Positions 24,429 to 43,959 of a DNA stretch of 64,000 nucleotides are shown here, in pieces. The notes under the pieces were generated by a model. The model saw only the letters and a program-made list of their open reading frames with translations. It was not told the DNA's origin and searched no databases. Made by a program: the position numbers and the translations under genes. Position 1 is the stretch's first letter. Each line of letters starts with the position of its first letter. The stretch is from Nitrosopumilus sp. (GTDB lineage: Archaea; Thermoproteota; Nitrososphaeria; Nitrososphaerales; Nitrosopumilaceae). The DNA lies in NCBI GenBank assembly GCA_965197525.1, contig OZ240211.1, forward strand, positions 1,568,001-1,632,000, given 5' to 3'.

Positions 24429-24809
24429 TTAATGATACGACATACCGCTACTAGTGCGACGTAATATTCTAATGTAATTAGATAGTGGTTCTGAACATCT
24501 CTTGCAAAAGGTTGCTGTAGAACCTATTATTCTAACTTCTTTTACTGTTAATGGTTCAAATGTATCTAGGAACATAAGGCAATATGTCTGCACGCCAATA
24601 CAATCAATACCGCATGTAATACATATGCCATCTCCAAACTGTTGTATGACACGTTTGACATAATCAAAAAGATCCACCGTACATCTATTGCAAAATAAAA
24701 TACCGGTTCCGTCAAGATTCTTTACATTCAATGGCTTCAACGTAGTAGTTTCAAACAAATAACTTTTAGGTTCATTCCCGCATTCTGTGTCACAAATACC
24801 ACATTTCAT
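24429..24809 (-). CDS. Duplicated zinc-finger protein
   Basis: CGICDTEC...FCNRC and CITCGIDC...FCKRC; two homologous halves. Confidence 0.65.
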   Translation of the reverse strand: MKCGICDTECGNEPKSYLFETTTLKPLNVKNLDGTGILFCNRCTVDLFDYVKRVIQQFGDGICITCGIDCIGVQTYCLMFLDTFEPLTVKEVRIIGSTATFCKRCSEPLSNYIRILRRTSSGMSYH

Positions 24810-25533
24810 GCTATCACTATTCCGTTGATCATATAAATTGACTATAAGAGTTCATCGTACTGCGGTTTTGTCTAGTCAAAGTCACGAGGATGTTCTTCTC
24901 AACGTACGTGATATAAAATCTAGTGTCTGTCTGCATTCATATTTATTGATACAGATCGACCTTGGTAATGCATCAACTGGCTATAGTAACGCATATAAAT
25001 TTGCGCAGTCTTACCTGTAGCCAATTTCTTTGATTAGGTTATCATGATATGGTTGTAGGCACCATCGTGCATGGAAATGTATGTATTTTCTTCAAAAAAT
25101 AATGTTTAGGTGTACGAACTTATGCTTTTAGATGTATGTTTGTAATTATTCCATTCATGACGTTTCGCGGAATCGTTCTGGACCACCTGTATCTGGGAAG
25201 AATCCGGAGACTTTTGAGATCTCCATCGTAGTAACGGTACAGACAGTCGCAGATCCACGTGAGACAGTGTACCGGGATGTTGACAGTCCATCCACGGACA
25301 TGTCAAGGACTCGTACCATGCAAACGACGACTATTTTGATTTGAACCTTAGTCATCCTTCTTGCGTGCCTTTTCGAGTTCTTCCCGTTTTGTATCATCCA
25401 TGCATCTTTGAGATGAGATCTGATCTACAAACTTTTCAATTAATTATACGCAAACTTTGACGCGTCGATATAGGCACGTTTGAAGAGGTTGTGTGACTAG
25501 CTACATTTTGTAGAAAATTTTTACGCTAACTTT

Positions 25534-26469
25534 TCATTCTTGGTACAGTTCGGAGTATTTGGCAATCCACATAACAGATGCTTGGCTAAGACCAGTCAAC
25601 CACTTTAGTTGCGCGTGGGTGTGTTCCGGTTGTACGGGTTGAACAAATTTGGGCGGCCTGAGTGAACAGCCGAGTTTTACGGCAAGTTGGTCAAATTCGG
25701 CTAACAATTCATCCATATTATCCCCTTTTTTCTTGAGTTTTTCCTCCGGTGTATTACTCAGTGAGTGTGAGCCCATATTACGGGTTCTTCGTATGATGTC
25801 TACTGCGGCAAAGAATAGCTCGGCATCTGATCCCCAGCACTCATCGCTTTTGACCTTGTCCTTAAATTTGCACATTTTATTGTACATGGAACGCTCGTTC
25901 CACGTACCCATCATCTTGTCAGCATAATGCTCAATTGCCTGTAACATTGTGAGGAATAAACCACGCCATGCCGAAAGGTCATCGCGCCTCCTGATGTGAG
26001 CATGGATCAGACAGATCCCATATATGGAGAATTTATTGCCAGAACATAATGGTAGTACGTTAAACGGTAGAACCGGCGTAGGGATGTCATCTATACCATA
26101 CCACAACACATCCCAGTTCAGCATCAATCCATGGAATATTGCAGGTATGTTCTGTATTAAATAATCGGCATCCGCAAAGCGGGCAGATTTACTGCCCACT
26201 ATGACCACATCCACATCCAGAATGTTTCTAGGATCCAAGCCTAACTCATGTTCAATGTTAAATCCCATGCCTTTCAGGAATTGAACAATCTGATTCATTT
26301 CATAATGCATGTCATCCAGATCCGTGCTAATATGCAGTATGTTTACATACCTGGATCTGACTCTGTTGCGTCCTGTACACCGAAACATCTCAATACGAAA
26401 GTCCGCCATTGAATGGACGAATTTCCCCCAATCAAGTCTGGAATCAAACTTTGGTGTATTGGTAGTCAT
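25534..26469 (-). CDS. Hypothetical protein with C-terminal HEPN-like motif
   Basis: IIRRTRNMGSHS (Rx4H). Confidence 0.6.
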   Translation of the reverse strand: MTTNTPKFDSRLDWGKFVHSMADFRIEMFRCTGRNRVRSRYVNILHISTDLDDMHYEMNQIVQFLKGMGFNIEHELGLDPRNILDVDVVIVGSKSARFADADYLIQNIPAIFHGLMLNWDVLWYGIDDIPTPVLPFNVLPLCSGNKFSIYGICLIHAHIRRRDDLSAWRGLFLTMLQAIEHYADKMMGTWNERSMYNKMCKFKDKVKSDECWGSDAELFFAAVDIIRRTRNMGSHSLSNTPEEKLKKKGDNMDELLAEFDQLAVKLGCSLRPPKFVQPVQPEHTHAQLKWLTGLSQASVMWIAKYSELYQE

Positions 26470-26514
26470 GTAGCATCACACATGATTTAGATGACTCCAA
26501 GTATTATTCATATG

Positions 26515-27089
26515 TTAGTCAACAGGTGACATACTGTGGAATATGAAAAGTAATTACCCCCAAAAAAACTCCCCTTAAATAGAATTCAGTTATACAAATA
26601 ATGGAAACGTTGTGTTTGTTGCAAAAAATAAAAATAGAGATGTTTTGTTTTAAGATGTTTTTCAAACACAACAAACACAGCGTTTTCCAAACAACGATAA
26701 ATACAAACAACGATAAATACAAACAGTTGCCAGTCAACTGGATATTTTTTATTTAATGAAATAATTAGACATGTTTTTGTAGTCTGTGTTTATCATTTGC
26801 CTAAAAACCACCAAAAAAAGTGGCTTAAATAGAATTCATTTATCAAATAATGAAGATGTTGTAGTTTGTTATAAAAAATTAATAAGTTTGTTTGATGTCA
26901 ATACTTTTTGGTTTTAACCATAAAATAACAAATACAACATCTTCAAAATAACTATAAACCCAAACAGTTACTAGTCAACTGTATATTGATGAAGATACAC
27001 ATATTTTTAATAATCTTTAATTATTGTTTGTAATATATCCAAAAAACCCCAAAAAAAGTGGCTTATATACTATTCAATATTCTATAAAC
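26515..27089 (+). promoter_or_regulatory. Triplicated promoter-like unit (palindrome plus BRE/TATA) with two long hairpins
   Basis: CTTAAATA at 26574 and 26824, CTTATATA at 27062; CAGTTRCYAGTCAACTG at 26724 and 26965, partial at 26515; hairpins 26603-26688 and 26852-26944. Confidence 0.7.
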
Positions 27090-27650
27090 ATGAACATTTT
27101 AAAATGTTTACCAAAAAATGACCTCTTTACGCCACGTCAACGAAGACGAGCAGTATCAGGTCCAATTGTCGCAATTCTGATTATCGTTGTAGCAATTGCA
27201 ATTGTCGCAATTTTGATAGGTACAACTACTGATTTGATAGGTACAGCAAGTATTGTTGATTCAGTTGATCTTTCCAAGCAGACACTGTATGCAAAGCAAG
27301 AATTTGCCAGTATTACTGTGAAAAATAGTGGTACTACACCGATAGAAGATATTCAAGCATATTTGCTAATTACAAGTGACAGTGATTGTGGAAATGAGGG
27401 TACTTATAGAGCCTCAATTGGTGTAAATACTCTTACAAATGGTACTAAGGTTGTACAAGAGATAGAAGAACTAAATCCTGGTCAATCAGCAACAATTAGT
27501 GGTGATCTCTATCAAACTGATACTACCACTGGTATTGATTGCACTGGTACTAATAATATTGATGATCGAAAAGAATACATCATTCAAGTAGACGGTACGG
27601 GTGAAGGTACTCAAGAAACATCATTCACAACAACTGTCCGTTCTAGATAA
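27090..27650 (+). CDS. Archaeal type IV pilin / archaellin-like protein
   Basis: Class III signal peptide RQRRRA|VSGPIVAILIIVVAIAIVAIL; SITVKNSGT Ig-like motif; ATG 27090 lies 28 bp after the TATA box (leaderless). Confidence 0.85.
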   Translation: MNILKCLPKNDLFTPRQRRRAVSGPIVAILIIVVAIAIVAILIGTTTDLIGTASIVDSVDLSKQTLYAKQEFASITVKNSGTTPIEDIQAYLLITSDSDCGNEGTYRASIGVNTLTNGTKVVQEIEELNPGQSATISGDLYQTDTTTGIDCTGTNNIDDRKEYIIQVDGTGEGTQETSFTTTVRSR

Positions 27651-27751
27651 TCATAGATAGGACAATCAACATTTTTTTATTTTTTATTTAATGGAATGAC
27701 ATTTTTGTATTATTCTTTGTAACGCAGTGCCACATGCGCCCCCTTTCTCTT

Positions 27752-27820
27752 AAATTTTTTCATCCTAATTTTCGATTTTTAGATGAAATTTTTTCATCCT
27801 AATTTTCAAAATTTAGATGA
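27752..27820. repeat. Two tandem 34-bp imperfect palindromes
   Basis: ttttcatcctaattttcRaWWtttagatga twice (catcc at 27761 and 27795). Confidence 0.65.
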
Positions 27821-28214
27821 TTTTTTGTGGATTATATTGATGGGTTACATAGGCTTAAACTCAGACTCTGTTAACCCATCGAAACTTTTAGGCATTTTTA
27901 GTGACTGTGATCTAAAACACTCTACACGGTGTCTACGCTTGGCAAACATCAACAAGAATGTAATCCCAAACATCATGAGTAATGTAGAAATGGAAGATAG
28001 GTGGATTGATGTGTGGACAATACTATTACAAAAAACTCGACGAATGTTATTTGGTAGAAAATATTTAGGTAAACATACATTTGGATTGGCCTTCACATTT
28101 GTAGTCATGCTATTGTTTTCATCCCTGTCTCTTTTTTCTACAATGTGAATATGATTTGTCTTCTTTTCAAAACCAAAAAAGACATTTTATATAAAACGGA
28201 ATCGTAACCGACGT

Positions 28215-29597
28215 ATGGACTCTAGAAATAAGAAAGCAACGTTGATTTTCTCAGAACATAATCCAATAAAAAAGATAACAAAGAATCACTACACTGTAGA
28301 ATCGCAAACCTCAGATAATACATACAATGTTAGAAAAATGCCAAAATCTGATGTATGGACTTGTGAATGTAGTGATTTTCACTTTAGACTGAGAAAATCA
28401 GATGACAAACACTGCAAACACATCAAATCTTGTATTTTAGTGGTAAATTCTATAAGAATACATCGCAGAATAGAAAAAACTGACATGCCAAAGGTTTGCT
28501 CAGCGTGCTATTCTAATGAAATTATTAAATCTGGATTTAGAACACTAAAGAATGGAACAAAGAGACAGCGTTATGAATGCAAAAAATGTAACAATAGGTT
28601 TATTCTAGGTGAGAATGGATTTTCAAAGGTAGAAACAAATCCCAAAATAATCTCAGAATCCATCAATTTAGTCATGTCAGGAATGTCATATAGAAGTGTT
28701 GCAAGACATATTGAGACATCACGTCAAATCAAGATTAGTCATACGTCTGTAAATAGTTGGATAAAAAAATATACCATTCTAATCAAGGAATATGTAGATA
28801 CTCTTGTTCCTAATGTATCTGATGTATGGTCCTTGGATGAAATGTACCTAAAGGTTAAAAACACAAAAAAGACAGGCAAGGGATTCCATGATTGGTTATG
28901 GAATATAGTTGACCCCAAGACTAGATTTTTGATAGCTACAGAAGTATCAAAGAGAAGGGAAACTAGTGATGCAAGAAAAATTATCGCTAGTGGAAAGCGT
29001 ATTGTTTCACAGAATAATAGACCAAATTACGTTCTAACTGACTCTCTACACGCTTATGAAAAGGCGATAAGAAAAGAGTTGGCAAATCGTACTGCTCACG
29101 TCAAAACCAAGTCTCTCAAAGATGGTTTTGTTAACAGGCCTGTTGAGAGATACCATAACACATTTCGTGAAAATTTAAAGTCAAGACGCGGACTAGGAAA
29201 TGATGAATCTGCACAGAGATTTTCTGATTTACATAGAATACATTATAATTTTACAAAACCACATCAAGGATTAGACGGTAAGACTCCAGCTCAAGAAGCT
29301 GGAATTGATCTTAAATTAGGTCATGACAAGTATAGGGATTTAATCAAGTTAGCAGGAACTAAACCAAACTTTGTAAATAATTTGGGAAAGAGAATCGATA
29401 AACTATCAATAATTCATGAAGGCGACTGTATCAAAATTTCAACTAAAGAGTGGATTGACAAAAAAATCTGGAGAGAAATTAATGATATTCTAAGCCTTCA
29501 CAAATTTAGCTGGTTATCTAATGGTAAGGACAGTTGTTGGATTAGAATTAACTCTTTGCCAATAATACAAAAAGATAAAGACGATAACCAAGACTGA
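28215..29597 (+). CDS. IS6-like DDE transposase with N-terminal SWIM and Zn-ribbon domains
   Basis: WTCECSDF...CKHI; CSAC...CKKC; HTH MSYRSVARH; DDE in WSLDEMY, LTDSLHAY and VERYHNTFRE; frame intact. Confidence 0.85.
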   Translation: MDSRNKKATLIFSEHNPIKKITKNHYTVESQTSDNTYNVRKMPKSDVWTCECSDFHFRLRKSDDKHCKHIKSCILVVNSIRIHRRIEKTDMPKVCSACYSNEIIKSGFRTLKNGTKRQRYECKKCNNRFILGENGFSKVETNPKIISESINLVMSGMSYRSVARHIETSRQIKISHTSVNSWIKKYTILIKEYVDTLVPNVSDVWSLDEMYLKVKNTKKTGKGFHDWLWNIVDPKTRFLIATEVSKRRETSDARKIIASGKRIVSQNNRPNYVLTDSLHAYEKAIRKELANRTAHVKTKSLKDGFVNRPVERYHNTFRENLKSRRGLGNDESAQRFSDLHRIHYNFTKPHQGLDGKTPAQEAGIDLKLGHDKYRDLIKLAGTKPNFVNNLGKRIDKLSIIHEGDCIKISTKEWIDKKIWREINDILSLHKFSWLSNGKDSCWIRINSLPIIQKDKDDNQD

Positions 29598-29673
29598 AAA
29601 ATCCTAAAATACTATCACCTATATGCTCATTTATATCAGAATTTAGATTTAAGCAGAGATTTACAATAATAGA

Positions 29674-30624
29674 TTAAGGACAACTCCGACATTTGCCCTC
29701 TATAAATGGTCTTCTTTTAAGATCATCTTTGATCTTTTCTAATTCATTCTTAAAACAATCTAACTCTGTTGAGATATTATAGTATTCAGATCCATACTCG
29801 CTGTAGGATTTTTTCAATGAATCATCATTGATTATCTCTGTTACTAACTTCTTGTATTTCTCAAAATCTATCTCGCTATCAGACCCCATGTGAAAACCAT
29901 TAGGTTTCCACTTTGAATAAATTACTTTGTGTTCATTTGATTTATTATAATATAAAGATTTCAGAGCATGTTCAGAAAAACCATTAACATTTTTGAAATA
30001 ATCTATTATAAATTGTCGAATATTTGATATGTCGTAATATTTTAATTCAGTGACTCTATTTTCAAAGTCAGAAAAACACTCATCCATTTTTTCTTTTATC
30101 TTGTCTTCCAGAATTTCCGCAATACTGGTTTTGCTGTCGAGTTCGTCCAACATGGTTTTTACTTTTTCCCAGTGTTTGTAGATGTGCTTGTATTTATCCT
30201 TAAGATGCTCTATTGCAGAGTCATAATAGAGATAAGCAGATTCAGATTTCAACTGGTCTTCATATAATGTCTCAGGCAGTATGCCTTCCTCCAAGTCGTG
30301 ATAATAGTGGGGGCTATCTGGGTAGTATTCCTTTGGGAATTTGATAAAGTATTTCCACCGTTCTTCCCCTCTACCGTGATCAAGTTCAACAAGTGTAAGC
30401 ATTTTGTAGACTTCATTTATGGATTTTGTATGTTCTTTTTTCTCACTGCGTGGTACTTCATTTCCGAAAAAGAACTTCTTAAGAATTACTAGCAAAAATC
30501 CCACGCCCACAGTTCCAATAATTGGTGTAATTGACTTGCTTTCATCTGGTAATATTATAGGCAATAATAGAGCTACTGATATAACTAGGATTGCACTTAT
30601 GAACCAGATATACCTTCGTCGCAA
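29674..30624 (-). CDS. Membrane-anchored hypothetical protein
   Basis: 316 aa with two N-terminal hydrophobic helices. Confidence 0.75.
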   Translation of the reverse strand: MRRRYIWFISAILVISVALLLPIILPDESKSITPIIGTVGVGFLLVILKKFFFGNEVPRSEKKEHTKSINEVYKMLTLVELDHGRGEERWKYFIKFPKEYYPDSPHYYHDLEEGILPETLYEDQLKSESAYLYYDSAIEHLKDKYKHIYKHWEKVKTMLDELDSKTSIAEILEDKIKEKMDECFSDFENRVTELKYYDISNIRQFIIDYFKNVNGFSEHALKSLYYNKSNEHKVIYSKWKPNGFHMGSDSEIDFEKYKKLVTEIINDDSLKKSYSEYGSEYYNISTELDCFKNELEKIKDDLKRRPFIEGKCRSCP

Positions 30625-30718
30625 TTCTTAACCTGTTCGTCATTATTTTGTCAATATATAACCATTATAACATTCAATTTTATACCCCTATCACGACAAC
30701 TAAGCAGACACCAAATTT

Positions 30719-31081
30719 TTAACAGAATGTAAACGGGTGGCCTACCTTTCCACAGTTCATCTTATCAAGCCCCTGCACCATGAGCTCCTCGTTTATCTGA
30801 AGCATAAACAACTTGCCGCGATCTATGTATTTGCGGTTATCATACTGGAGTCTGCATTCGTTTGAACTGTAAGATTTTTTAGTACCATGCTTGCCTAGTT
30901 TGTCTGGAGAGGATGTGTTTTTGGTCATGATTGATAGTCTGATTGACAACGCACCTCTCTGTTCAATACAGTTTTCTATTGAAAGTGTTTGATACAACGT
31001 TCAAATTCAGTTGTTCTATGCCTAATCTGATCTGATTTTGGATTAGTTAGGCGTGGTTGATGATAATTAGGAAACAGAGTT
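30719..31081 (-). pseudogene. IS5-family remnant: left end plus transposase N-terminus
   Basis: End AACTCTGTTTCCTAA (31081-31067, minus strand), then YDNRKYIDRGKLF...KMNCGKVGHPFTF, resembling archaeal IS5-type N-termini; truncated. Confidence 0.55.
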
Positions 31082-31174
31082 CCGAAAAAGAACTTCTTAA
31101 GAATTACTAGCAAAAATCCCACGCCCACAGTTCCAATAATTGGTGTAATTGACTTGCTTTCATCTGGTAATATT
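31080..31174. repeat. Exact 95-bp copy of 30462-30556
   Basis: ttccgaaaaagaacttcttaag...catctggtaatatt in both places, offset 618. Confidence 0.92.
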
Positions 31175-31176
31175 GT

Positions 31177-31280
31177 AACTTGTAATAATTACATCCCTAA
31201 CTTTACAGTCTCACGCCAAATACCCTGTCACCTCCCTAACTTTACAGTCTCTTGAAAACTCCCGAATATTGAACAGAGTA
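31177..31280 (-). repeat. Right TIR with subterminal 19-bp motifs
   Basis: TCCCTAACTTTACAGTCTC at 31194-31212 and 31233-31251 (39-bp period); 31177-31193 is the reverse complement of 13675-13691. Confidence 0.9.
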
Positions 31281-31330
31281 TTATCTTCAACTCTGAATGC
31301 ATGTAAAAACATCCTCGTCGTAGTCTAGAT

Positions 31331-31448
31331 GATGGATCGACCCCTTGGGAAACATGTGCTTCGCGCACTTAACTTTGAATGGGGCAATCCGAGCTGCTGC
31401 GTTCCTGTGCCTCGCGCACTGATAGGTGATTGCAGCCTCCGATCCATC
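31331..31448 (+). ncRNA. Predicted bridge/seek RNA
   Basis: Closing stem GATGGATCG/CGATCCATC; two loops, each with a GTGC-YTCGC-GCAC hairpin; four guide segments match the element junctions. Confidence 0.8.
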
Positions 31449-31479
31449 AAAAACAATCCGCAAGGAGGTGATAAAAAGG

Positions 31480-32580
31480 ATGAGAAATATTGGAATAGAC
31501 ATTAGCAAGAGAAAATGCGTGGTATGTGTCATGGATGACAAGGAAAGAATACTAGAGGAGACTACATATGACAATACGCTAGAAGATGCAAAAGAGTTTG
31601 CAGGCAGGATGAAAAGAAAATACGGCAAGAGAAGGGGACAGTGCCGTGCGGCATGCGAGACTACAGGAAACATGTGGCTCAAGACATTTGAGGCATTTGA
31701 GGAACACGACATACCAATCCAGCTTGCCAACACCTACAAGATGAAGATAATATCAGATACTGACATCAAGACGGATCCCATCGATGCACGAAAGATTGCC
31801 AACATACTTCGTGTAGAGATGATTCCACGGTGTTATGTGGCGCCCCCAGTACTGCGTGATGCCAGAGAGCTGCTCAGGTACAGAATAAGCATGGTTCAGG
31901 CAAGGACTGCACTTATCAACTATACACACGGTCTGCTTGACAAGTACGATGTAAGACTGAACGTCTCAAACATGTACAGCAAAAAAGCCATCGGACTGCT
32001 CTCACATACAGAACTGAAAAGACCAAACGACAACCTGATACTAAAAAACTGTGCCAAAAGAATTGCACATGTCACAGAAGAGATAACAAATGTCGAAACA
32101 GAGATAGACAAACAAGCAGCAGTAAACGATGATGCAAGATTGCTTATGAGCATGACAGGACTGGATGTATTTGCATCAATGCTTGTCGTATCAGAGATTG
32201 GGGACATATCAAGATTCAAAACCCCGGAACACTTGGTCTCATGGGCAGGCATGTGTCCCACCGTCTACCAATCAGGTGATGTAACACATCATGGCCGCAT
32301 GAAAAAGGCAGCAAACAGAAGAATAAACTGGATACTTATTCAAGTAGCAAACGTGGCAGTAAGATACGATGACAAGTTAAAAGAGTTCTATGAGAGATGC
32401 AAAAAAAGACATGGCGGCAAACATGCGATTGCCGTAACACATGTGGCAAACAAGATGATACGAATCATTTGGGCCATACTGACACTCAGGGAACCGTACA
32501 AGTCACACAATGTACAAAGATATGGCAGAAAGATAAAGAGAATGAACAGTGTTCGACAGTCTATGCAGGGTACGGAATAG
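31480..32580 (+). CDS. IS110-family recombinase
   Basis: DEDD residues in GIDISK, ACET and KTDPID; C-terminal VYQSG serine; SD-like AGGAGGTG upstream of ATG 31480. Confidence 0.93.
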   Translation: MRNIGIDISKRKCVVCVMDDKERILEETTYDNTLEDAKEFAGRMKRKYGKRRGQCRAACETTGNMWLKTFEAFEEHDIPIQLANTYKMKIISDTDIKTDPIDARKIANILRVEMIPRCYVAPPVLRDARELLRYRISMVQARTALINYTHGLLDKYDVRLNVSNMYSKKAIGLLSHTELKRPNDNLILKNCAKRIAHVTEEITNVETEIDKQAAVNDDARLLMSMTGLDVFASMLVVSEIGDISRFKTPEHLVSWAGMCPTVYQSGDVTHHGRMKKAANRRINWILIQVANVAVRYDDKLKEFYERCKKRHGGKHAIAVTHVANKMIRIIWAILTLREPYKSHNVQRYGRKIKRMNSVRQSMQGTE

Positions 32581-32958
32581 CCAGTCAGTCACACATCTGT
32601 TGCAGTTTTTTTCCTAGCGATAGCTTTAAAAATATACACGTGTATTGTAGGCGTGGATCGAAGGCCAAATGGAAACCACGCGTGGCTGTGCCCGGATGTT
32701 TTAACATAGGCGTTTCCCAATTTCGATAAACGCATCTGAATTGCCATAAAGAACACGATTATCGTGTGGCTTGACACTGTTTACGGACTAAATTAATCGT
32801 AAAAGTACGAATTGTTTGAATTGAGAAACAAAGTTCAGCAATACAGACAGTTATATACACCCTATTTTATTCTAATATTGTAGTCAAGCATGATATTGAA
32901 TGATAACATTAAACATTGTATAATAAAGACGGTAAACACACTAAACAAGTCGCCGCAC

Positions 32959-35900
32959 ATGTCATTGTGTGGGGGGGGGGGGCGAGCGAGCAGAAATACG
33001 ATCCTGTTGGCTTCAACTATTTTATTATGTGTGGTTATGATAGGCATCTCTCCTGCAGCGTATGGAACCCTATCTGATCCTGTACCAGTGTCATCATTTG
33101 AAGATGGTGATACTGTCAACGGCAAGACGTTTGACGAACTTTTAGGAGCACGTGGTCTTACTACCATCGAGATCGATTCCAAGATATATGCACTGGTTAC
33201 ATCGGGTGTAGACTTTGGCGTTCAAATTATAGATATATCAGACCCTGCAAATCCAGCACCGGTGTCATCCTTTGATAATGGTGATACTGTAAACGGTAAG
33301 ACGTATGATGAGCTTGACGCTCCCAGACAAATAGCCTCAGTCAAGATCGGCTCAGGTACGTATGCACTTGTAGCAAATAATATGGACGGCGTTCAAATTA
33401 TAGACATAACCGATCCTGCAAATCCTGAACCTGTAACATCCTTTGATGATGGTGATACTGTAAACGGTAAGACGTTTGATGAGCTTAACGGGGCATACGG
33501 CATCACTACAATCAAGATCGGTTCCAGTACATACGCACTGGTAACGGCAGTTGATGATAATGGCGTTCAAATTATAGATATATCAGACCCTGCAAATCCA
33601 GCACCTGTATCATCCTTTGATGACGGAGATACTGTAAACGGTAAGACGTATGATGAGCTTGAAGACCCATACGACATCACTACAGTCAAGATCGGTTCCA
33701 AGACGTATGCACTGGTAGCGGCGCATGGCGACGACGGCGTTCAAATTATAGATATATCAGACCCTGCAAATCCAGCACCTGTATCATCCTTTGATGATGG
33801 TGATACTGTAGGTACTAAGACGTTTGATGAGCTTGCCGGGGCATACGGCATCACTACAGTCAAGATCGGTTCCAAGACGTATGCACTGGTAGCGACAGCT
33901 ACAGACGACGGCGTTCAAATTATAGATATATCAGACCCTGCAAATCCAGCACCTGTATCATCCTTTGATGACGGAGATAGTGTCATAGTCGGAAGTTTCG
34001 AGAGGCCATTTAGAGAGCTTGAATCGGGGTTTGGAATTACAACCTTGAAGTTTGGTCAGGGAGTGTATGCACTTGTGGCAGCACATGTAGACGACGGAGT
34101 TCAGATTATAGACATAACAAACCCTGCAAATCCAGTACCGGTGTCATCCGTTGACGACTTTGGCATTAATGGAGAACTTGATGGGGCATACACCGTCACT
34201 ACAGTCAAGATAGACTCCAAAGTGTATGCACTGGTGACGGGGTTTAATGATGCCGGAGTTCAAATAATTGATTTAGGAGAGGAACCGCCAGAGGGCCATC
34301 CTCTATTATCACCTAAACCTGTAACATCCTTTGATGACGGGGATTATGTAGGCAATAAGCAGTTTAAAGAACTCAATGGTGCACGTGGCATCACTACCAT
34401 CGAGATCGGCTCCAAGGTGTATGCACTGGTAGCAGCAGCCGTTGATAACGGCGTTCAGATTATAGATGTAACGAATCCTACAAATCCAGTACCGGTGTCA
34501 TCCGTTAATGACGGAAATACTAGAGGAGGCGTACAGTTACAAGAACTTAAGGGGGCGAATGGCATTACCACAATCGAGATCGCATCCAAGATATATGCAC
34601 TGGTAACGGCAGGTGGTGATAACGGCGTTCAGATTATAGACATAACAAACCCTGCCAGCATAAAAGGTGTGTCATCCTTTGATGACGGAGATACTGTAGG
34701 TACTGAGACGTTTGATGAGCTTACTACTCCCAGGAACATCGATGTCTTTAAGCTCGGCTTCAAGCTGTATGCCATTGTAGCATCATCTGGTGATAACGGC
34801 GTTCAAATTATAGACATAAGTAGTCCTCAAAACCCACTACCTGTATCATCCTTTGATGACGGAGATGCTGTAGGTACTGAGACGTTTAGTGAGCTTTTAC
34901 AAGCATTTGACGTCACTACAATCGAGATAGACTCTACTATGTATGCCTTGGTAGCAGCATTTGCCGACGACGGCGTTCAAATTATAAACATAACCGATCC
35001 TGCAAATCCTGCACCGGTGTCAGACTTTGATGATGGTGATATAGTTAGAGTTGGCTCTTTAGATCTAACATTTGACGAACTTGACGGGGCATACAGTATT
35101 ACTACCGTCACTATTGACTCCAAGGTGTATGCACTGGTAGTAGCACGTAATGACAACGGAGTTCAAATAGTAGACATATCCGATCCTGAAAATCCTGCAC
35201 CAGTATCATCATTTGATCACGGTGATACTGTAAACGGTAAAGTGTATGACGGGCTTAATAGGCCAACTAGTATTACCACATTGACGTTTGAGGGAGGAGT
35301 GTATGCGTTGGTAACGGCAATTAATAGCGACGGAGTTCAAATAGTAGACATATCCGATCCTGCAAATCCTGCACCAGTGTCATCCTTTGCTGATAGTGAT
35401 ATTGTCAACGGCAAGACGTTTGATAATCTTGGAGATCCATACGACATCACTACCGTCATGATCGGCTCCAAAGTGTATGCACTGGTAGCAGCACATTATA
35501 GCGACGGAGTTCAAATAATTGATCTTGGAGGGCCAAAGGTAGAGGTCCAGGGCAAGATCGCAGACAAAGGCGACACTTACAGTAGTGTGTGTAAGGCAGT
35601 CATCAAGGACATAAACCCAGATGTCAAGTGGAGTGCAGTTATTTCTGTGCATGGTTTTACGCCAGGGGAGTTTATCCGTGACACAATCACACTTGCAGCA
35701 GACGAATCATATGCAGAATCACCTAGTCCAAACTACCATTTTGTAATCAAAAAGTCCGATGCTTATGATGGTAGTGTCACGGTGCAATTCGTGGAAAGGG
35801 GTATCAATCCGTCCCACAGTGGTACATGTACGATTGACATAATGTCCTATGATGCATTGTTCGTAGAGAGGATCCCCGTCCCAGTGATCACACTTGACGA

Positions 35901-36312
35901 AGACGAAGGATCACCTAGGTTCGTTGCACGGTCAGTAGAGGGTATAGATAATACCAGTGCCGTATGTTTGGCCAGAGTAAATAACATAGACAGTTCTTTG
36001 GGTTGGTTTATAGACATTAGTCTGAGGGATCAGAATAACGATGTAATTGTTCAGACCCTGTCAGGTGTCGGGCCGCCAACAGTCAATTATTGGGTATCAG
36101 AAGATGTAACAGAGGATGGCATCATACAGGGTAAGAACTCTATGTATATGGGCAGGCAGAATTTTGTAATCGCAAAGTTGGTTTACTATGATGCAGACCC
36201 TGACAGGAATTATCAGTGCTTGTATGACGTGGGAGTGGATAGGAGAACATCAACAGGTGGGGCAGTAACCATAGACAATGTTGTCAGTGCTTTCGGCTAT
36301 ATCAGAAACTGA
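32959..36312 (+). CDS. Large surface protein with 14 LVIVD-like repeats (2 x 7-blade beta-propeller) and a C-terminal unique region
   Basis: 14 copies of YALV...GVQI(I/V)(D/N); repeats 7 and 14 end in IIDLG; probable start ATG 32959 followed by a signal peptide. Confidence 0.88.
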   Translation: MSLCGGGGRASRNTILLASTILLCVVMIGISPAAYGTLSDPVPVSSFEDGDTVNGKTFDELLGARGLTTIEIDSKIYALVTSGVDFGVQIIDISDPANPAPVSSFDNGDTVNGKTYDELDAPRQIASVKIGSGTYALVANNMDGVQIIDITDPANPEPVTSFDDGDTVNGKTFDELNGAYGITTIKIGSSTYALVTAVDDNGVQIIDISDPANPAPVSSFDDGDTVNGKTYDELEDPYDITTVKIGSKTYALVAAHGDDGVQIIDISDPANPAPVSSFDDGDTVGTKTFDELAGAYGITTVKIGSKTYALVATATDDGVQIIDISDPANPAPVSSFDDGDSVIVGSFERPFRELESGFGITTLKFGQGVYALVAAHVDDGVQIIDITNPANPVPVSSVDDFGINGELDGAYTVTTVKIDSKVYALVTGFNDAGVQIIDLGEEPPEGHPLLSPKPVTSFDDGDYVGNKQFKELNGARGITTIEIGSKVYALVAAAVDNGVQIIDVTNPTNPVPVSSVNDGNTRGGVQLQELKGANGITTIEIASKIYALVTAGGDNGVQIIDITNPASIKGVSSFDDGDTVGTETFDELTTPRNIDVFKLGFKLYAIVASSGDNGVQIIDISSPQNPLPVSSFDDGDAVGTETFSELLQAFDVTTIEIDSTMYALVAAFADDGVQIINITDPANPAPVSDFDDGDIVRVGSLDLTFDELDGAYSITTVTIDSKVYALVVARNDNGVQIVDISDPENPAPVSSFDHGDTVNGKVYDGLNRPTSITTLTFEGGVYALVTAINSDGVQIVDISDPANPAPVSSFADSDIVNGKTFDNLGDPYDITTVMIGSKVYALVAAHYSDGVQIIDLGGPKVEVQGKIADKGDTYSSVCKAVIKDINPDVKWSAVISVHGFTPGEFIRDTITLAADESYAESPSPNYHFVIKKSDAYDGSVTVQFVERGINPSHSGTCTIDIMSYDALFVERIPVPVITLDEDEGSPRFVARSVEGIDNTSAVCLARVNNIDSSLGWFIDISLRDQNNDVIVQTLSGVGPPTVNYWVSEDVTEDGIIQGKNSMYMGRQNFVIAKLVYYDADPDRNYQCLYDVGVDRRTSTGGAVTIDNVVSAFGYIRN
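32971..32982 (+). repeat. G12 homopolymer in the 5' coding region
   Basis: Twelve consecutive G encoding GGGG, four codons after the probable start. Confidence 0.85.
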
Positions 36313-36403
36313 CATCTTGTAATGTGTAACAATGGATATCTAGGGAATTATATAGTCAAGTAAGGTACCACTTTTTGCATACTTTTCCGTATGATTCTAT
36401 CCC

Positions 36404-37518
36404 TCATTTATTCCCACCCTCCAATTTTAGGACGAATTCATTGGGAGTGAGATATCCCAATGCGGAGTGAATCCTGTCCTTGTTGTAATCTACAAATGCT
36501 TTTGCTAAAACGACCTCTGCGTCTTGGAGGCGTGCAAACTCGTGCGGCCAGACATATTCCCTCTTGAGTGTTTCATGGAAAGACTCCACATGTCCGTTTT
36601 GCTCTGGAGTATTCTTCCAGATAAACTCGTGTCTTATTCCCAGTGTCTGCATGGATTTCTTGAACTCACGACTGCTGCTGTACTGCGTATCGTTGTCAGT
36701 TCTAAGCCTTAGATGTGAGATATCTTTTACAGACAATACTGCCTTTAGCACAGATTGAACGGTTGTGTGTGCCGTAGCTGCAGCATCAAAGATGTATGAT
36801 ATCCATTCCCTGGTAAACACATCTATGACGTTAAAGCAGTAACACCATCAGTCCATGCCAATGGATGTATGTCATGTCTGTCTCCCAAAGCTGGTTGGGT
36901 GCGTCAGGCTTGAACTTTCTGCGTCTTGATGTACGAATTATGCCGTTTTTGCTATTTTGAGGCTTATTCCGGCCTATTTTTCTATATATGCGCTGTATTT
37001 TTTTACGATTTGTAGGAATGTTCGTCTCTCTTGCAACCTGTGCTGTCATGCGTCTGGTTTCGTACGTGGGCCGCTTGGAGGACATCTTTTTTACCTTGTC
37101 TGTGACCTCTGCATTTATCAGAACATCTCTTGGTTTTTTAGTATAATACCAAGCATGTTTGGACATCCAGCAATACTGCAAGGCTTTGTTCAGACTCATT
37201 TCTTTGCTTGTTTCACGTACTGCCTGTATCCTCATCGATTTGTCCCATCCAAAGTTTTTTTTAAAACGTCGTTGGCTATGGTGATCTCACCTATTATACG
37301 CTTGAGATTCTCTCTACCTCCTTTGTATGATTTTTGGTCTTGTCTTCTTTGTTTAGGAGGAAGGCCTCCTTGCCTCCCTGCAGAAACTTGTCTTTCCAAT
37401 CTTGGAATGTAGTTGGAGATATGTTGTGTTTGCGACACAATTCGGCAGCAGATATACTGGTATTGATAAATTCCATTACTATTATTGCCTTGTCTTGGGG
37501 GTTATGCTTCTTGTTCAT
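36404..37518 (-). pseudogene. IS3-family transposase, frameshifted
   Basis: OrfA HTH (ISAAELCRKHNISPTTFQDWK) and rve motifs WETDMTY, LRTDN, NGHVESFHETLKRE split across four frames. Confidence 0.85.
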
Positions 37519-37765
37519 ACACTTCCTCTAACCTCCTGCTCCAAAAAGTATACGGATTTGATCGGTTTCATTATAGAGGGGTCTGCACCAGATTCCTTTA
37601 AAAAAATTGGATCTGTCCGGTTCTAACCTTCTGAAAGAGCCAAAATTAACCATCCGGTTCTAATCGTCCTGTATAGCAAAGGCTATACAAAATTATACAC
37701 TGTTCAATCTTAATGTCATTTGTCTGCTTTTCTACACTGTTCATTTAGGCGGATGGACCGTAAAG

Positions 37766-37990
37766 TTAGGGTGATGAGGGTTTGCATCGTTTACAATCAC
37801 GGTATTTCATAGAATGTTCTCTAGCTAATCTTTGAGCTATGTTTGTAGCGGTTTGAAGGGTTGGTGCAGTATGCCAATCTGAATTTTCAGCTAAAGGTTT
37901 TCTACATGTATAGTAATGACACTCTATATCATGAATCTTGATATCTGAGGCTTTTGGGATGTTGTGATAAATTGCAAATCTATCTATCAT
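37766..37990 (-). CDS. Small Cys/His hypothetical protein
   Basis: 74 aa; IHDIECH...DCKRC. Confidence 0.5.
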   Translation of the reverse strand: MIDRFAIYHNIPKASDIKIHDIECHYYTCRKPLAENSDWHTAPTLQTATNIAQRLAREHSMKYRDCKRCKPSSP

Positions 37991-38025
37991 AAAATTATGA
38001 TGTTGAACTTGTTAAAAAATTAAGC

Positions 38026-38860
38026 GACTAGCTTCAACCAGCAACTATCTTTTCCGTTTGACGGCCAGCTAAACCCATGAAGTCTGGGAATGTCGTTTAT
38101 CTCACGCCAGACATGATGTCTCATGTCAATCCAATTTTTAGGACCATAATGGTTACATTGATGGAATAGAAAGGCAGACCCATCATGCGGATGGCTATAG
38201 CCATCATTACAGAATGGGAGGATGCCAAAAAGGGCGTCTAGGCGTGATTCGTGGTTCGATGTAAAGGGTAAAGTTACCCCGGGACGGGCGCAACAGATCA
38301 AAAAGGTTCCTGACGGCACAGGATGCGTGATGCTTGATGAGGATATGACGTCAGGTGGCAGGAGAGGAATCCCAAGGAGTTTGAAGATGCGTACCACCAG
38401 CGTAGTATAGTGGAATCGGTGTTCTCTTCATTCAAGCACTGGTTTACTGCGGTTGTTCGTGCAAAGAAGATGGCAACGCAGAGACTGCAGCTGCTCTCCG
38501 GTGCATCTGTTACAACCTGCTGTCATAGTGGAACGACGTAAAAAACACGTGGTGTGTCTAGCGTATGCTGTACAACCATGCAACGTTTTGGTAGATACAC
38601 CTCATCATATCCTGCTGCTAGAAAATTATACAGGGAATCAAAAGCAATAAAGTCAGATTGACATCTAATAGGTTTGAAAAAATAAGATTTGGACAACGCC
38701 GACTAGCTTCAACCAGCAACTATCTTTTCCGTTTGACGGCCAGCTAAACCCATGAAGTCTGGGAATGTCGTTTATCTCACGCCAGACTGATTTGTCAATC
38801 CAATTTTTAGGAGTTACATTGATGGAATCACCCTCATTGGCTATAGTTACTTTCTTGATT
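38026..38860 (-). pseudogene. Two copies of an IS6-like transposase C-terminal tail flanking an IS5/IS4-type remnant
   Basis: About 87-bp direct repeat (38026-38112 and about 38700-38786) encoding VWREINDIPRLHGFSWPSNGKDSCWLKLV, homologous to the C-terminus of the 28215 transposase; plus-strand YHQRSIVESVFSSFK at about 38390-38435. Confidence 0.75.
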
Positions 38861-38861
38861 T

Positions 38862-38919
38862 GGTTCTGTAAAGTTAACAGGTGTTGGAAGGTCAGAGTAC
38901 TCGATGGGTTAACAGAATC
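38862..38919. mobile_element. 58-bp MITE-like element (copy 2)
   Basis: GGTTCTGTAAAGTTAACAGGTGTTGGAAGGTCAGAGTACTCGATGGGTTAACAGAATC; sits where the IS6 tail fragment breaks off. Confidence 0.75.
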
Positions 38920-39235: not shown

Positions 39236-39293
39236 GGTTCTGTAAAGTTAACGGGTGTTGGAAGGTCAGAGTACTAGACGAGTTAACAGAACC
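39236..39293. mobile_element. 58-bp MITE-like element (copy 3)
   Basis: GGTTCTGTAAAGTTAACGGGTGTTGGAAGGTCAGAGTACTAGACGAGTTAACAGAACC. Confidence 0.75.
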
Positions 39294-40642: not shown

Positions 40643-40644
40643 GG

Positions 40645-42432: not shown

Positions 42433-42475
42433 AGATCACTGTTAACTTACCGTCACTTGAGATCTGGTTCGAAAG

Positions 42476-43820
42476 TGCTCTGTCGGATAACCCTGCCTAA
42501 AATTTCCTGAAACTGCAGTTGTGTAAACAAAATTTGAATGACAGCACAACAAACTATGTCTAATGGTATAAAATAGTAGGCGTACCCACACATCTCTAAC
42601 TTGCAAGAGAAAGATGGGCAGGCGTGCCAAATAACAAAACAACAATCAGGTTTATTATCTTTCGCACTGTTAGTAGAATCTCATATCGTAGGTGGTATGC
42701 TTTCATGACGCTTGATTCTGAAAAATATATCAATGTGGGCAGGCTAATGGTACTTGGACCCGACCCTAGATGGAAGGAAGATGTAAAGAAGGCCAACTAT
42801 CGCAAAAATGGGTATAAACCCGTTTATGTACAATGACGCGTTGTTTGCAGCGCTTGGTGTAATCAAAACCATTGCAGGACTGTCATACAAGAATCTAGAG
42901 GGATTATGTAAAGAAGCTCTCGGAGATGCAAACGCACCTGATCTCCATTATCCATGCAAGGATTACTAGTCTTGACATATCATTTGATGATTCCAATCGT
43001 GCCAATATCAAAACTCATGATGGTAAGACGATACGATTTGCCATAGATTCCACTGGAATGACTCCCTACAAACGTGGTGAGTCCATACACGAAAAATGGC
43101 ACGTCAAGCGAGGGTTCGTCAAACTGCACGTAATAGTGGATGAGTCTGACGGTACGGTGCTGTCAGCAAAACTGACAGATGATGACAGGGGTAGTGGGGA
43201 CACTTTACAGCTAGAAGAGCTGCTCGATGATGCACTAGAAAAGATTAAACCACAACAGACAGGTATCACGGAATGTGTAATTCAAAACTCAGACAAAGAA
43301 CAGCAACATCAAGATGTGGAATTGTTAGGAGATGATGGAGCATACGGTTCCCGGAAGAACGTGGCTGCGTGCAAAAAACGCAACGTATCTCCAATACTCA
43401 GACTTGCTGTGACATCAACTACGAGAGGAGATGGATACGGTGATGACTGGAGCAATCTTGTAAGAGAGCAATTTGGCTGCAAGACAAAAGGCGGCAGGAC
43501 GTACACCAACAGTCTAACCAAAAACGAAAAGTATGACAACCAGAAAAAATGGATGAAGGATACAAAGTATGGTAAGCGCTGGCGTGTAGAGTGTGTGTTC
43601 TCCTCCATCAAGCGCATCCAAGGTGAGGCGTTGTGGTCCCGCAAGGTACCGTACATGAAGCAGGAGATAAGACTTAGGATGTGGGTGCATAACGTGATCA
43701 CTAAGATGGGGGTGTACATATTTGACTGTCTATGATGGTCAATACGGAACATGGAAATCAAAACCGTCGCCTCCGTCACCCTTGTTGGGATCATGGGAGG
43801 GAAAGTTATCCGACAGAGCA
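42476..43820 (+). mobile_element. IS5-family element with frameshifted transposase
   Basis: Perfect 16-bp TIR TGCTCTGTCGGATAAC (42476-42491) / GTTATCCGACAGAGCA (43805-43820); AIDSTG, FVKLH, DDGAY and YGKRWRVECVFSSIK motifs; N-terminus broken across 42624-42836 and 42926-43735. Confidence 0.87.
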
Positions 43821-43959
43821 TTATCTTCAAGAACTTTAAATATATTTTACATTTGTCAATAAAATCATTAAAATTATTGCCAAATTTTTAAACATATGAG
43901 TTATTCTTATATATATTCAAATGCATATTTAATACATGAAGATCGAGGTTGAGTCTTAA

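What the first reader, a model, noticed from the sequence alone, without database searches (positions are those of the whole stretch)
31067..32720. The IS110 targets transposon ends: one hit site and one empty site 200 bp apart
Seen: removing the IS restores AACTCTGTTTCCCAATT, which starts exactly after the TTATCTTC junction. A near-identical uninterrupted AACTCTGTTTCCTAATT is the left end of the IS5 remnant at 31081 (minus). Known: IS4321/IS5075 of the IS1111 group target Tn21 TIRs. Inference: an archaeal RNA-guided IS that parasitises, and may immobilise, IS5-type ends; here it disrupts the left end of the 12.5-kb unit at its 7th base.
Basis: partly seen in the sequence, partly recalled or inferred. 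Interest (0 to 1): 0.75.

Follow-up and report, generated by a model that had tools for sequence, protein, structure and literature searches.

The report
RNA-guided IS that lands in IS5 ends
In an ammonia-oxidising archaeon, a jumping gene of the IS110 family carries a small guide RNA that matches the terminal repeats of other jumping genes (IS5 family and their miniature derivatives), so it inserts into their ends; bacteria are known to have the same habit.

Summary
A 1415-bp IS110-family element (window 31296-32710) splits AACTCTG|TTTCCCAATT. An intact AACTCTGTTTCCTAATT lies 207 bp away at 31066-31082 (minus strand).

- **What the two sites are.** The intact site is the terminal inverted repeat (TIR) of an IS5-family element that has three full copies with 8-bp target duplications. 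The split site is the left TIR of a 130-bp MITE (miniature non-autonomous element) with the same kind of end.
- **How the target is chosen.** The left end of the IS110 element encodes a two-loop bridge RNA. Its target loop spells both halves of the TIR, and its donor loop spells the element's own joined ends. The fold is supported by covariation across 13 genomes.
- **Reprogramming within the genome.** Sister copies 96-98% identical carry changed guides. Two are set to a second IS5 TIR (TAGTTTG|TTTCATAA), and one of these sits in that TIR. The third is set to the IS 'E' TIR but sits off target.
- **Off-target copies.** Two of the four intact copies lie in unique intergenic DNA that matches only the left half of the guide, so TIR targeting is preferred but not exclusive.
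- **Relatives.** Relatives in other genera sit in IS5 TIRs (3 of 3 copies) and in IS66 TIRs.
- **Novelty.** This is a new archaeal member of a known kind, after IS1383 in IS1384 ends and IS4321/IS5075 in Tn21 ends.

Whether the insertion immobilises its host element was not tested.

The parts
30724..31082 (-). Remnant (about 358 bp) of IS5-family element 'E': its end plus the first ~77 codons of the transposase
   Evidence: 100% identical to genome 1064077-1064434, the end of a full copy. tblastn with the E2 transposase matches residues 1-77.
31066..31082 (-). Uninterrupted TIR AACTCTGTTTCCTAATT: the empty site
   Evidence: Read directly. Identical to the TIRs of the full copies E1, E2 and E3. 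Matches the A-type and B-type guides when wobble is allowed.
31281..31288 (+). TTATCTTC, an 8-bp direct repeat also present at 13619 and 43821; a target duplication shared by the two abutting large units
31289..31295 (+). Outer 7 nt (AACTCTG) of the MITE left TIR: the left target half-site, ending in the core TG
31296..32710 (+). IS110-family element, 1415 bp, one of four copies 96-100% identical
   Evidence: Boundaries from copy comparison. Pfam PF01548 and PF02371. NF033542 at 229 bits against a cut-off of 140.
31304..31314 (+). Left sub-terminal inverted repeat TAAAAACATCC (partner at 32694-32704)
   Evidence: 10 of 11 complementary. Co-varies in relatives, for example TAACCACCCC / GGGGTGGTTA in G014.
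31331..31448 (+). Bridge RNA core: closing stem 31331-31339 with 31440-31448, enclosing the target loop and the donor loop
   Evidence: 93.5% of cells paired, 13 of 26 pairs with compensatory changes, 0 of 500 shuffles as good, slid controls 31-50%
31345..31355 (+). Target loop, 5' strand UUGGGAAACAU: complementary to top-strand TG TTTCCCAA (right half-site)
   Evidence: Read directly. Varies GGG / AGG / GUG among the copies, tracking three different TIR variants.
31369..31380 (+). Target loop, 3' strand UUAACUUUGAAU: same sense as AACTYTG (left half-site), followed by AAU, which equals the first 3 nt of the IS
   Evidence: AAC changes to UAG in copies C and D, whose flank is TAGTTTG. Cognate match 4.14 of 5 against 1.59 for non-cognate pairs.
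31398..31406 (+). Donor loop, 5' strand UGCGUUCCU: UGCGUUC pairs with G+AATGCA, the core G plus the IS left tip (one G:T)
   Evidence: Read directly
31420..31431 (+). Donor loop, 3' strand UGAUAGGUGAUU: AUAGGUGA equals right tip ATAGG + core TG + A of the left tip, that is, the circle junction
   Evidence: Read directly. The same relation holds in the G041 and G014 relatives.
31480..32580 (+). DEDD/Ser recombinase gene, 366 aa; D7, E60, D99, D102 and S265 align with IS621 D11, E60, D102, D105 and S241
   Evidence: IS621 residues from PMC11208158
32614..32636 (+). Conserved CTAGCGATAGC-TTTAAAAATATA in the right end, facing outward: candidate BRE/TATA promoter that would read across a circle junction (inference)
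   Evidence: Conserved at the same place in the G006, G014 and G041 relatives
32694..32704 (+). Right sub-terminal inverted repeat GGATGTTTTAA
32711..32712 (+). Second copy of the core dinucleotide (CG here, TG in the other three copies)
32713..32835 (+). Rest of the MITE (TTTCCCAATTT ... GAGAAACAAAGTT)
   Evidence: 83-87% identical to six other copies; two of them have 8-bp duplications, GTAACTAT and CAAAACCA
42471..43825 (+). IS5-family element forming the right end of the proposed 12.5-kb unit
   Evidence: 28-nt inverted arms. ORF 42926-43735 matches NF033579 at E 3.9e-27, below the cut-off, and is truncated. Followed by TTATCTTC at 43821.

Best explanation
The element is an active, multi-copy member of the IS110 family in a Nitrosopumilaceae-type archaeon. 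It chooses its insertion site with a bridge RNA encoded in its own left end.

Shown by the sequence:
- The target loop carries one strand complementary to top-strand TG-TTTCCCAA. Its other strand has the same sense as AACTYTG, so it would pair with the bottom strand. Together they specify the first 15 nt of the TIR of a resident IS5-family element and its MITE.
- The donor loop likewise spells the joined right and left tips of the IS around the same TG core.

Inferred by analogy with IS621:
- Recombination at the TG core places the IS after TIR base 7, with the recombinase gene reading into the host element.

The guides are naturally reprogrammed. Within this genome, near-identical copies carry a variant set to the TIR of IS 'E', and another variant set to the TIR of a second IS5-family element, 'F'.

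TIRs are multi-copy, dispensable and renewed each time the host IS moves, so they act as a safe harbour (inference). Copies in unique DNA are off-target events that satisfy only the left half-site.

Splitting the TIR probably disables that end for the IS5 transposase. This is inferred and was not tested.
For: 1. Anatomy. Four copies define the ends and a repeated TG core.

2. RNA.
- The two-loop fold holds across 19 left ends from 13 genomes: 93.5% of cells paired, 13 pairs with compensatory changes, 0 of 500 shuffles as good, slid controls 31-50%.
- Guides match their own flanks at 4.14 of 5 (left) and 4.5 of 7 (right) positions, against 1.59 and 1.90 for non-cognate pairs. No permutation in 20,000 did as well.

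3. Reprogramming within the genome.
- Copy A has guides GGGAAAC and AACUUUG and sits in AACTCTG|TTTCCCAA.
- Copies C and D have GUGAAAC and UAGUUUG and are flanked by TAGTTTG.
- Copy C sits in TAGTTTG|TTTCATAA.

4. The targets are real TIRs.
- E and F are IS5-family elements: NF033579 at 201 and 155 bits against a cut-off of 140.
- Their copies have 8-bp duplications.
- The duplication TCAAAAAC brackets TAGTTTG + IS110 + the rest of F. F therefore arrived first.

5. Specificity. 14 of 16 empty sites that fit the A-type guide, and 4 of 7 that fit the C/D-type guide, are IS5 or MITE ends.

6. A second event. About 20 nt of a right-end remnant abut another MITE copy that lacks exactly its first 7 nt.

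7. Other genera.
- In G041 (50% amino-acid identity), 3 of 3 copies split the TIR TAGTCTGTTG|CACAACT of an IS5-family element, at either end. Duplications flank the composite.
- In G014 (49% identity), copies split the TIR GTAAGTGTTTACGTCGTG|CCTAGA of an IS66-family element.

8. The enzyme looks intact: all five catalytic residues align.
Against: - Two of four intact copies (B, D) lie in unique intergenic DNA with no IS end. B's guide fits the IS 'E' TIR, not its own right flank.
- Several decayed left-end fragments, and the 57%-identical relative IS110-2, have guides that fit their flanks poorly.
- In G041 the right guide matches the TIR only partly: 5 Watson-Crick pairs and 3 wobble pairs out of 10.
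- Only about 2-3 of roughly 30 TIR ends in the genome are occupied.
- Folding the single sequence is not better than shuffles (z = -0.76), and no Rfam family matches.
- No RNA, circle junction or transposition has been observed. Everything here is comparative.
- The window copy has CG, not TG, at the right junction.
Confidence: 0.87

Rival explanations
1. The targeting is RNA-guided, but there is no specialisation on transposon ends. The short guide happens to fit an abundant repeat, and TIR hits simply reflect that IS5 and MITE ends are the commonest sequences carrying AACTYTG/TAGTTTG followed by TTT.
For: Half of the intact copies are in unique DNA. The left heptamer alone is enough for B and D. 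Relatives in G006 sit in a small palindromic repeat rather than an IS end, and the targets in G065 and G135 are not resolved.
Against: Three guide variants each fit a different TIR over the full 15 nt. This includes B, which is not in a TIR. Relatives at about 50% identity in two other genera sit in IS5 and IS66 TIRs with quite different guide sequences. That pattern is recurrent retargeting onto IS ends, not one coincidence.
Confidence: 0.09
2. The site is recognised mainly by the recombinase protein, or by an IS5-encoded factor bound at the TIR. On this view the RNA-like complementarity is a by-product of the IS carrying copies of its junctions.
For: No direct evidence. The AAU after the left guide and the AUAGGUGA in the donor loop do read like junction sequences.
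Against: The guide positions change together with the flanks, while the protein stays 96-98% identical. Guide-flank matching holds across 14 elements. The stems around the guides are kept by compensatory changes. RNA guidance has been shown experimentally for the family (PMC11208160, PMC11187229).
Confidence: 0.03
3. Reverse order of events: the IS5-type element or MITE inserted next to, or around, a resident IS110 copy.
For: IS5-type elements here do insert exactly beside one another (same 8-mer three times).
Against: The TIR is split, with 7 nt left of the IS110 and the rest to its right. The 8-bp duplications bracket the composite in copy C and in G041. Intact TIRs of the same sequence exist elsewhere.
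Confidence: 0.01

Closest known systems
IS1383 (IS110 family), which integrates into the inverted repeats of IS1384 in Pseudomonas putida H (Mueller, Lauf & Hermann 2001; reference 13 in PMC11208160, title read)
   Same: An IS110-family element whose specific target is the terminal inverted repeat of another insertion sequence. From memory, IS1384 is an IS5-family element; I did not check this here.
   Different: That case is bacterial, and no guide RNA was known when it was described. Here the host is an archaeon, the guides can be read from the sequence, two IS5 TIR types and a MITE are hit in one genome, and there are off-target copies.
IS4321 / IS5075 (IS1111 group), which target the 38-bp TIRs of Tn21-family transposons (Partridge & Hall 2003, cited in PMC11187229 and PMC11208160)
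   Same: Site- and orientation-specific insertion inside a transposon TIR; sub-terminal inverted repeats; and a guide order in which the top-strand complement comes before the bottom-strand match, as in IS1111-type seekRNAs (PMC11187229).
   Different: Those elements carry the non-coding RNA region downstream of the gene, whereas here it is upstream. Their targets are Tn3-family TIRs, whereas here they are IS5 and (in G014) IS66 TIRs. Terminal extensions outside the sub-terminal repeats are 8 and 6 nt here, against 7 and 3.
IS621 bridge RNA system (Durrant et al. 2024, PMC11208160; Hiraizumi et al. 2024, PMC11208158)
   Same: RNA encoded in the left end; two internal loops, with the target loop first and the donor loop second; each loop pairs with one strand on each side of a core dinucleotide; DEDD + Ser recombinase with all five catalytic residues.
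   Different: The proteins are only distantly related (phmmer E 1.6e-7). [quoted passage not shown] Here the 5' side pairs with the top strand on the right, so the order is reversed. The core is TG rather than CT. The sub-terminal repeats are 10-11 bp rather than 2-3 bp. The natural target is an IS end rather than a REP element.
Natural retargeting of seekRNAs (ISEc11 vs ISXne4, ISEc21 vs ISMch6; Siddiquee et al. 2024, PMC11187229)
   Same: Close relatives differ at the guide positions, and their flanks differ to match.
   Different: Here the retargeted variants (96-98% identical in protein) coexist in one genome and are set to the TIRs of two different resident IS5-family elements.

Membership tests
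IS110 family (sensu ISfinder, DEDD recombinases) | Recombinase with an N-terminal DEDD RuvC-like domain and a C-terminal Tnp domain | tested here: met
   PF01548 E 3.9e-23 and PF02371 E 4.4e-24. NF033542 at 229 bits against a cut-off of 140.
IS110 family (sensu ISfinder, DEDD recombinases) | Catalytic D, E, D, D and Ser conserved | tested here: met
   D7, E60, D99, D102 and S265 align with IS621 D11, E60, D102, D105 and S241 (residues from PMC11208158).
IS110 family (sensu ISfinder, DEDD recombinases) | No classical terminal inverted repeats, and no target duplication beyond a short repeated core | tested here: met
   The ends AATGCATG... and ...AACATAGG are not inverted repeats. Only TG is repeated at the junctions of four copies.
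IS110 family (sensu ISfinder, DEDD recombinases) | Bridge/seek RNA with loops complementary to both the target and the donor | tested here: met
   Loops read directly. Structure covariation. Guide-flank statistics. Expression of the RNA was not tested.
IS110 family (sensu ISfinder, DEDD recombinases) | Moves through a circular intermediate with abutted ends | not testable with these tools
   The donor loop spells the predicted junction ATAGG-TG-AATGCA, which is consistent with a circle, but no circle was observed.
IS110 group (as opposed to IS1111 group) | Long left end that carries the RNA, upstream of the gene | tested here: met
   The left end is 184 nt with the RNA at 31331-31448. The right end is 130 nt.
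IS110 group (as opposed to IS1111 group) | Only 2-3-bp sub-terminal repeats; 5' side of each loop pairs with the bottom strand (PMC11208160) | tested here: not met
   The sub-terminal repeats are 10-11 bp (31304-31314 with 32694-32704). [quoted passage not shown]
IS1111 group | Sub-terminal inverted repeats of 7-17 bp | tested here: met
   TAAAAACATCC / GGATGTTTTAA, 10 of 11 complementary. In G014 and G041 the repeat has changed on both sides together, to TAACCACCCC / GGGGTGGTTA.
IS1111 group | Top-strand complement lies 5' of the bottom-strand match in the RNA (PMC11187229) | tested here: met
   UUGGGAAACA (complement of the top strand) precedes UAACUUUG (same sense as the top strand).
IS1111 group | Non-coding RNA region downstream of the recombinase gene (stated as 'usually') | tested here: not met
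   The RNA lies upstream of the gene. Group placement by protein phylogeny was not tested because no named IS1111 references were to hand.
IS5 family (the host elements E and F, and X in G041) | DDE transposase of the IS5 type, terminal inverted repeats and target duplications | tested here: met
   NF033579 at 201, 155 and 173 bits against a cut-off of 140. PF01609. 17-bp TIRs and 8-bp (7-bp for X) duplications.

The most novel reading that the evidence does not exclude
Nitrosopumilaceae-type archaea may harbour a distinct lineage of bridge-RNA recombinases with an architecture between the IS110 and IS1111 groups: RNA in the left end, long sub-terminal repeats, reversed guide order, and a complete outward-facing archaeal promoter in the right end. 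On this reading the lineage has specialised, by repeated natural reprogramming, on the ends of other insertion sequences (IS5 in two genera, IS66 in a third). It would be a hyperparasite of transposons that caps their ends and so limits their spread.
Probability: 0.3. Interest if true: 0.65.

Novelty: new member of a known kind. Interest (0 to 1): 0.5.

Why it matters
- It gives a clean natural example, in archaea, of RNA-guided recombinases being retargeted by a few base changes. Near-identical copies in one genome are set to the ends of different resident transposons.
- Insertion into transposon ends is therefore not a bacterial curiosity (IS1383, IS4321/IS5075). It recurs in an archaeal clade, against IS5 and IS66 ends.
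- For annotators, it explains why IS5 elements and MITEs in these genomes appear to lack one end.
- For engineers, it offers compact recombinase-RNA pairs (366 aa plus about 120 nt) with a TG core and a guide order different from IS621.
- The effect on the host IS (loss of a usable end) is a testable case of conflict between mobile elements.

Tried and rejected
- **Rfam.** A scan of 31200-32800 at E up to 1 found no match, so the RNA is not a curated family.
- **Single-sequence folding.** The left end gave z = -0.76 and the G041 left end z = 0.09. These are uninformative; the structure was established by covariation instead.
- **Own duplication for the window MITE.** I looked for one and found none: the left flank is TTATCTTC and the right flank is CAGCAATA. 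The MITE end therefore belongs to a larger unit or has been rearranged.
- **Do copies B and D interrupt genes or old IS ends?** No ORF of 50 aa or more spans either reconstructed empty site. The flanks are unique in the genome at blastn word size 11, E 1e-5.
- **IS110-2** (57% identity, genome 1456853-1458325). Its guides fit its flanks only partly (4 of 7 on the left), so I did not pursue it.
- **G065 and G135 relatives.** Guide-flank covariation is clear, but I could not settle whether the targets are IS ends. One 47-nt right flank recurs inverted 1.2 kb away.
- **Partridge & Hall 2003** (PMC219399) is not held in the library. It is cited only through other papers' reference lists.
- **Literature.** A search for archaeal IS110 elements in IS ends found nothing specific.
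- **Not attempted.** No structure prediction, complex prediction or large protein search was run, because none would change the reading.
Full report
**1. The observation**

The window reads ...GTATTATCTTC AACTCTG | AATGCATGTAAAAAC ... TTTTAACATAGG | CG | TTTCCCAATTTCGATAAAC.... AACTCTG lies at 31289-31295 and TTTCCCAATT at 32713-32722.

The ORF between them (31480-32580, 366 aa) carries both IS110-family Pfam domains. It scores 229 bits on NCBIfam NF033542, 'IS110 family RNA-guided transposase', against a cut-off of 140.

The window lies at 1568001-1632000 of a single 2.21-Mb contig. BLAST against the whole genome finds four copies 96-100% identical. Their junctions are:

| Copy | Genome position | Left flank | Right junction and flank |
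|---|---|---|---|
| A | the window | AACTCTG | CG TTTCCCAATT |
| B | 712167-713588, minus | AACTTTG | TG ATACCTGAAC |
| C | 1421266-1422687 | TAGTTTG | TG TTTCATAACATGCC |
| D | 1995750-1997170, minus | TAGTTTG | TG TTTTGGAGTG |

The element therefore runs from AATGCATG to AACATAGG (1415 bp), with a TG core present at both junctions. Copy A has CG on the right.

The reverse complement of 31066-31082 is the uninterrupted AACTCTGTTTCCTAATT, 207 bp away.

**2. What the two sites are**

*The empty site.* Window 30724-31081 is 100% identical to genome 1064077-1064434. That stretch is the end of a 1.36-1.42-kb element, here called E. E has three full copies, each with the TIR AACTCTGTTTCCTAATT and an 8-bp target duplication (ATGTAAAC, TCGTGTTA, TAACAGTT). 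Its 385-aa transposase scores 201 bits on NF033579, 'IS5 family transposase', against a cut-off of 140. It also matches PF01609. The empty site is thus the true terminus of an IS5-family remnant.

*The occupied site.* The sequence to the right of the IS110 element (32713-32835) is repeated six times in the genome at 83-87% identity. In the uninterrupted copies it starts AACTCTGTTTTCCAATTTCG and ends ...GGGAAACAAAATT. Two copies have 8-bp duplications, GTAACTAT and CAAAACCA. It is a 130-bp MITE with IS5-E-type ends. The window IS110 splits its left TIR after base 7.

**3. The guide RNA**

The 184-nt left end contains the following, read 5' to 3':
- a closing stem, GAUGGAUCG ... CGAUCCAUC;
- a first internal loop, CCCC-[UUGGGAAACAU]-GUGC UUCG C GCAC-[UUAACUUUGAAU]-GGGG;
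- a second internal loop, GCUGC-[UGCGUUCCU]-GUGC CUCG C GCAC-[UGAUAGGUGAUU]-GCAGC.

In the first loop the 5' strand is the reverse complement of TG-TTTCCCAA, the right half of the target. The 3' strand has the same sense as AACTYTG, the left half, followed by AAU, which equals the first three bases of the IS.

In the second loop AUAGGUGA equals right tip ATAGG + TG + A of the left tip. UGCGUUC pairs with G-AATGCA, with one G:T. The second loop therefore spells the junction expected in a circular form of the IS.

This is the target-loop and donor-loop plan of the IS621 bridge RNA (PMC11208160).

Single-sequence folding is not informative (z = -0.76) and Rfam has no match. Comparative evidence is strong:
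- I aligned the left ends of 19 elements from this genome and 12 others of the same family. These were found by searching 201 genomes, of which 32 had a match.
- On that alignment the five helices pair in 93.5% of cells and 13 of 26 pairs show compensatory changes.
- No shuffle out of 500 does as well, and sliding the partners by 1-3 columns drops pairing to 31-50%.

**4. Guides co-vary with flanks**

Among the four near-identical copies the loop strands differ exactly where the flanks differ.

| Copy | Right guide | Left guide | Where it sits |
|---|---|---|---|
| A | GGGAAAC | AACUUUG | AACTCTG\|TTTCCCAA |
| B | AGGAAAC | AACUUUG | AACTTTG\|ATACCTGA (its guide fits TTTCCTAA, the E TIR) |
| C | GUGAAAC | UAGUUUG | TAGTTTG\|TTTCATAA |
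| D | GUGAAAC | UAGUUUG | TAGTTTG\|TTTTGGAG |

Across 14 elements, cognate guide-flank pairs match far better than non-cognate pairs. On the left they match at 4.14 of 5 variable positions against 1.59. On the right they match at 4.5 of 7 against 1.90. No permutation out of 20,000 reached the observed totals.

The same covariation appears inside other genomes:
- G065: CCAUGUG against CCAAAUG.
- G014: GUCGUG against UUUGUG.
- G135: CUCUUG against CUAUUG.

**5. The second target is also an IS5 TIR**

The right flank of copy C matches, over 1367 bp at 98.7%, an element here called F. F has an intact copy at genome 1061630-1063001. Its TIR is TAGTTTGTTTCATAAC and its duplication is ATGTAAAC. Its 356-aa transposase passes the IS5-family model above cut-off at 155 bits.

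Copy C splits the left TIR of F after base 7. The 8-mer TCAAAAAC brackets TAGTTTG + IS110 + the rest of F. F therefore transposed first and was hit later.

**6. Specificity and exceptions**

Allowing G:U and G:T wobble:
- The A-type guide fits 16 empty sites in the genome, against about 1 expected from composition. Fourteen of them are E or MITE ends.
- The C/D-type guide fits 7 sites, of which 4 are F ends.

A further MITE copy (genome about 1256275, minus) lacks exactly its first 7 nt. It is preceded by GATGTTTTAACACAAGTG, which resembles the last 20 nt of the IS110 right end. This is the scar of a second hit at the same position.

Against exclusivity:
- B and D lie in unique intergenic DNA. 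Their flanks have no repeat elsewhere in the genome, and no ORF spans either junction.
- Both have a perfect 7-nt left half-site but match the guide at only 4 of 7 positions on the right.
- A 2026 preprint reports that IS621 off-target insertions often satisfy only half of the guide (10.64898/2026.08.31.748434). B and D fit that picture, but this is analogy only.
- Only 2-3 of roughly 30 TIR ends are occupied.

**7. Other genera**

| Genome | Identity to the window recombinase | Where its copies sit |
|---|---|---|
| G041 | 50% | All three copies fetched split the TIR TAGTCTGTTG\|CACAACT of an IS5-family element (173 bits on NF033579). One copy is at one end and two at the other; duplications TGCCTAA and CCGCGCG bracket two of the composites |
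| G014 | 49% | Copies split GTAAGTGTTTACGTCGTG\|CCTAGA, the TIR of an IS66-family element (NF033517, 237 bits) |
| G006 | 73% | Inside a small palindromic repeat; the record is titled Cenarchaeum sp. MAG |

Targets in G065 and G135 were not resolved. Insertion into the ends of other IS elements is thus recurrent in this clade, but not universal.

**8. Comparison with known systems**

The mechanism matches the bridge RNA or seekRNA systems shown experimentally for IS621, ISEc11, ISEc21 and others (PMC11208160, PMC11187229). The five catalytic residues of IS621 align with D7, E60, D99, D102 and S265 here.

Insertion into transposon ends has bacterial precedents:
- IS1383 inserts into the inverted repeats of IS1384 (title seen).
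- IS4321 and IS5075 insert into Tn21-family TIRs.

The element mixes group traits:
- Like the IS110 group, its RNA lies upstream of the gene.
- Like the IS1111 group, it has 10-11-bp sub-terminal inverted repeats that co-vary in relatives.

I did not place the protein by phylogeny.

**9. Verdict**

This is an archaeal IS110-family element whose bridge RNA is programmed to IS5-type TIRs, with natural reprogramming between two TIR types in one genome. It is a new member of a known kind. Immobilisation of the host element, and the status of the 12.5-kb unit, remain inferences.

Noticed in passing
window 13619-13626, 31281-31288, 43821-43828; genome 1061622-1064442 (L001): The same 8-mer occurs three times around two abutting IS5-type units, in two independent places. 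TTATCTTC brackets the 17.65-kb element (13627-31280) and the 12.5-kb unit (31289-43820). ATGTAAAC brackets F and E1. These elements seem to insert exactly at the edge of a resident relative and re-duplicate its target duplication.
   Followed up: partly
window 32614-32636: Conserved CTAGCGATAGC-TTTAAAAATATA in the IS110 right end, about 85 nt from the tip and facing outward. It is also present in the G006, G014 and G041 relatives. It looks like a complete archaeal BRE/TATA promoter that would read across the right-left junction of a circle into the bridge RNA, and in the integrated state out into the host element.
   Followed up: partly
window 30462-30559 and 31080-31177: A 98-nt direct repeat (99% identical) brackets the IS-E remnant plus 164 nt of other sequence. 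One copy lies inside ORF 29674-30624. The rearrangement is unexplained.
   Followed up: no
window 42471-43825: A third IS5-family element with 28-nt inverted arms (GCTCTGTCGGATAAC...) and a truncated transposase ORF. It has no duplication of its own, and its right end is followed by TTATCTTC.
   Followed up: partly
genome 1712322, 2186892, 161836, 1812747(-), 2177464, 474709, 1892607: Seven decayed left-end fragments of related IS110 elements. Most are still preceded by AACTCTG, AACTATG, AACGTTG or TAGTTTG. They record older insertions with the same left half-site.
   Followed up: partly
genome 1063383-1063549 (L001): Copy E1 of the IS5 element carries an internal 54-57-bp inverted duplication or inversion that breaks its transposase into three ORFs.
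   Followed up: no
window 32890-36312: Just right of the MITE lies a 1140-aa ORF with about 174-nt tandem repeats and choice-of-anchor B domains (TIGR04312, 125 bits). It is a large surface protein, with a G12 run at 32969-32980 near its start.
   Followed up: no
window 28215-29597: A 460-aa ORF with an IS240/IS6-type DDE domain (PF13610), unusually long for that family. It lies inside the 17.65-kb element.
   Followed up: no
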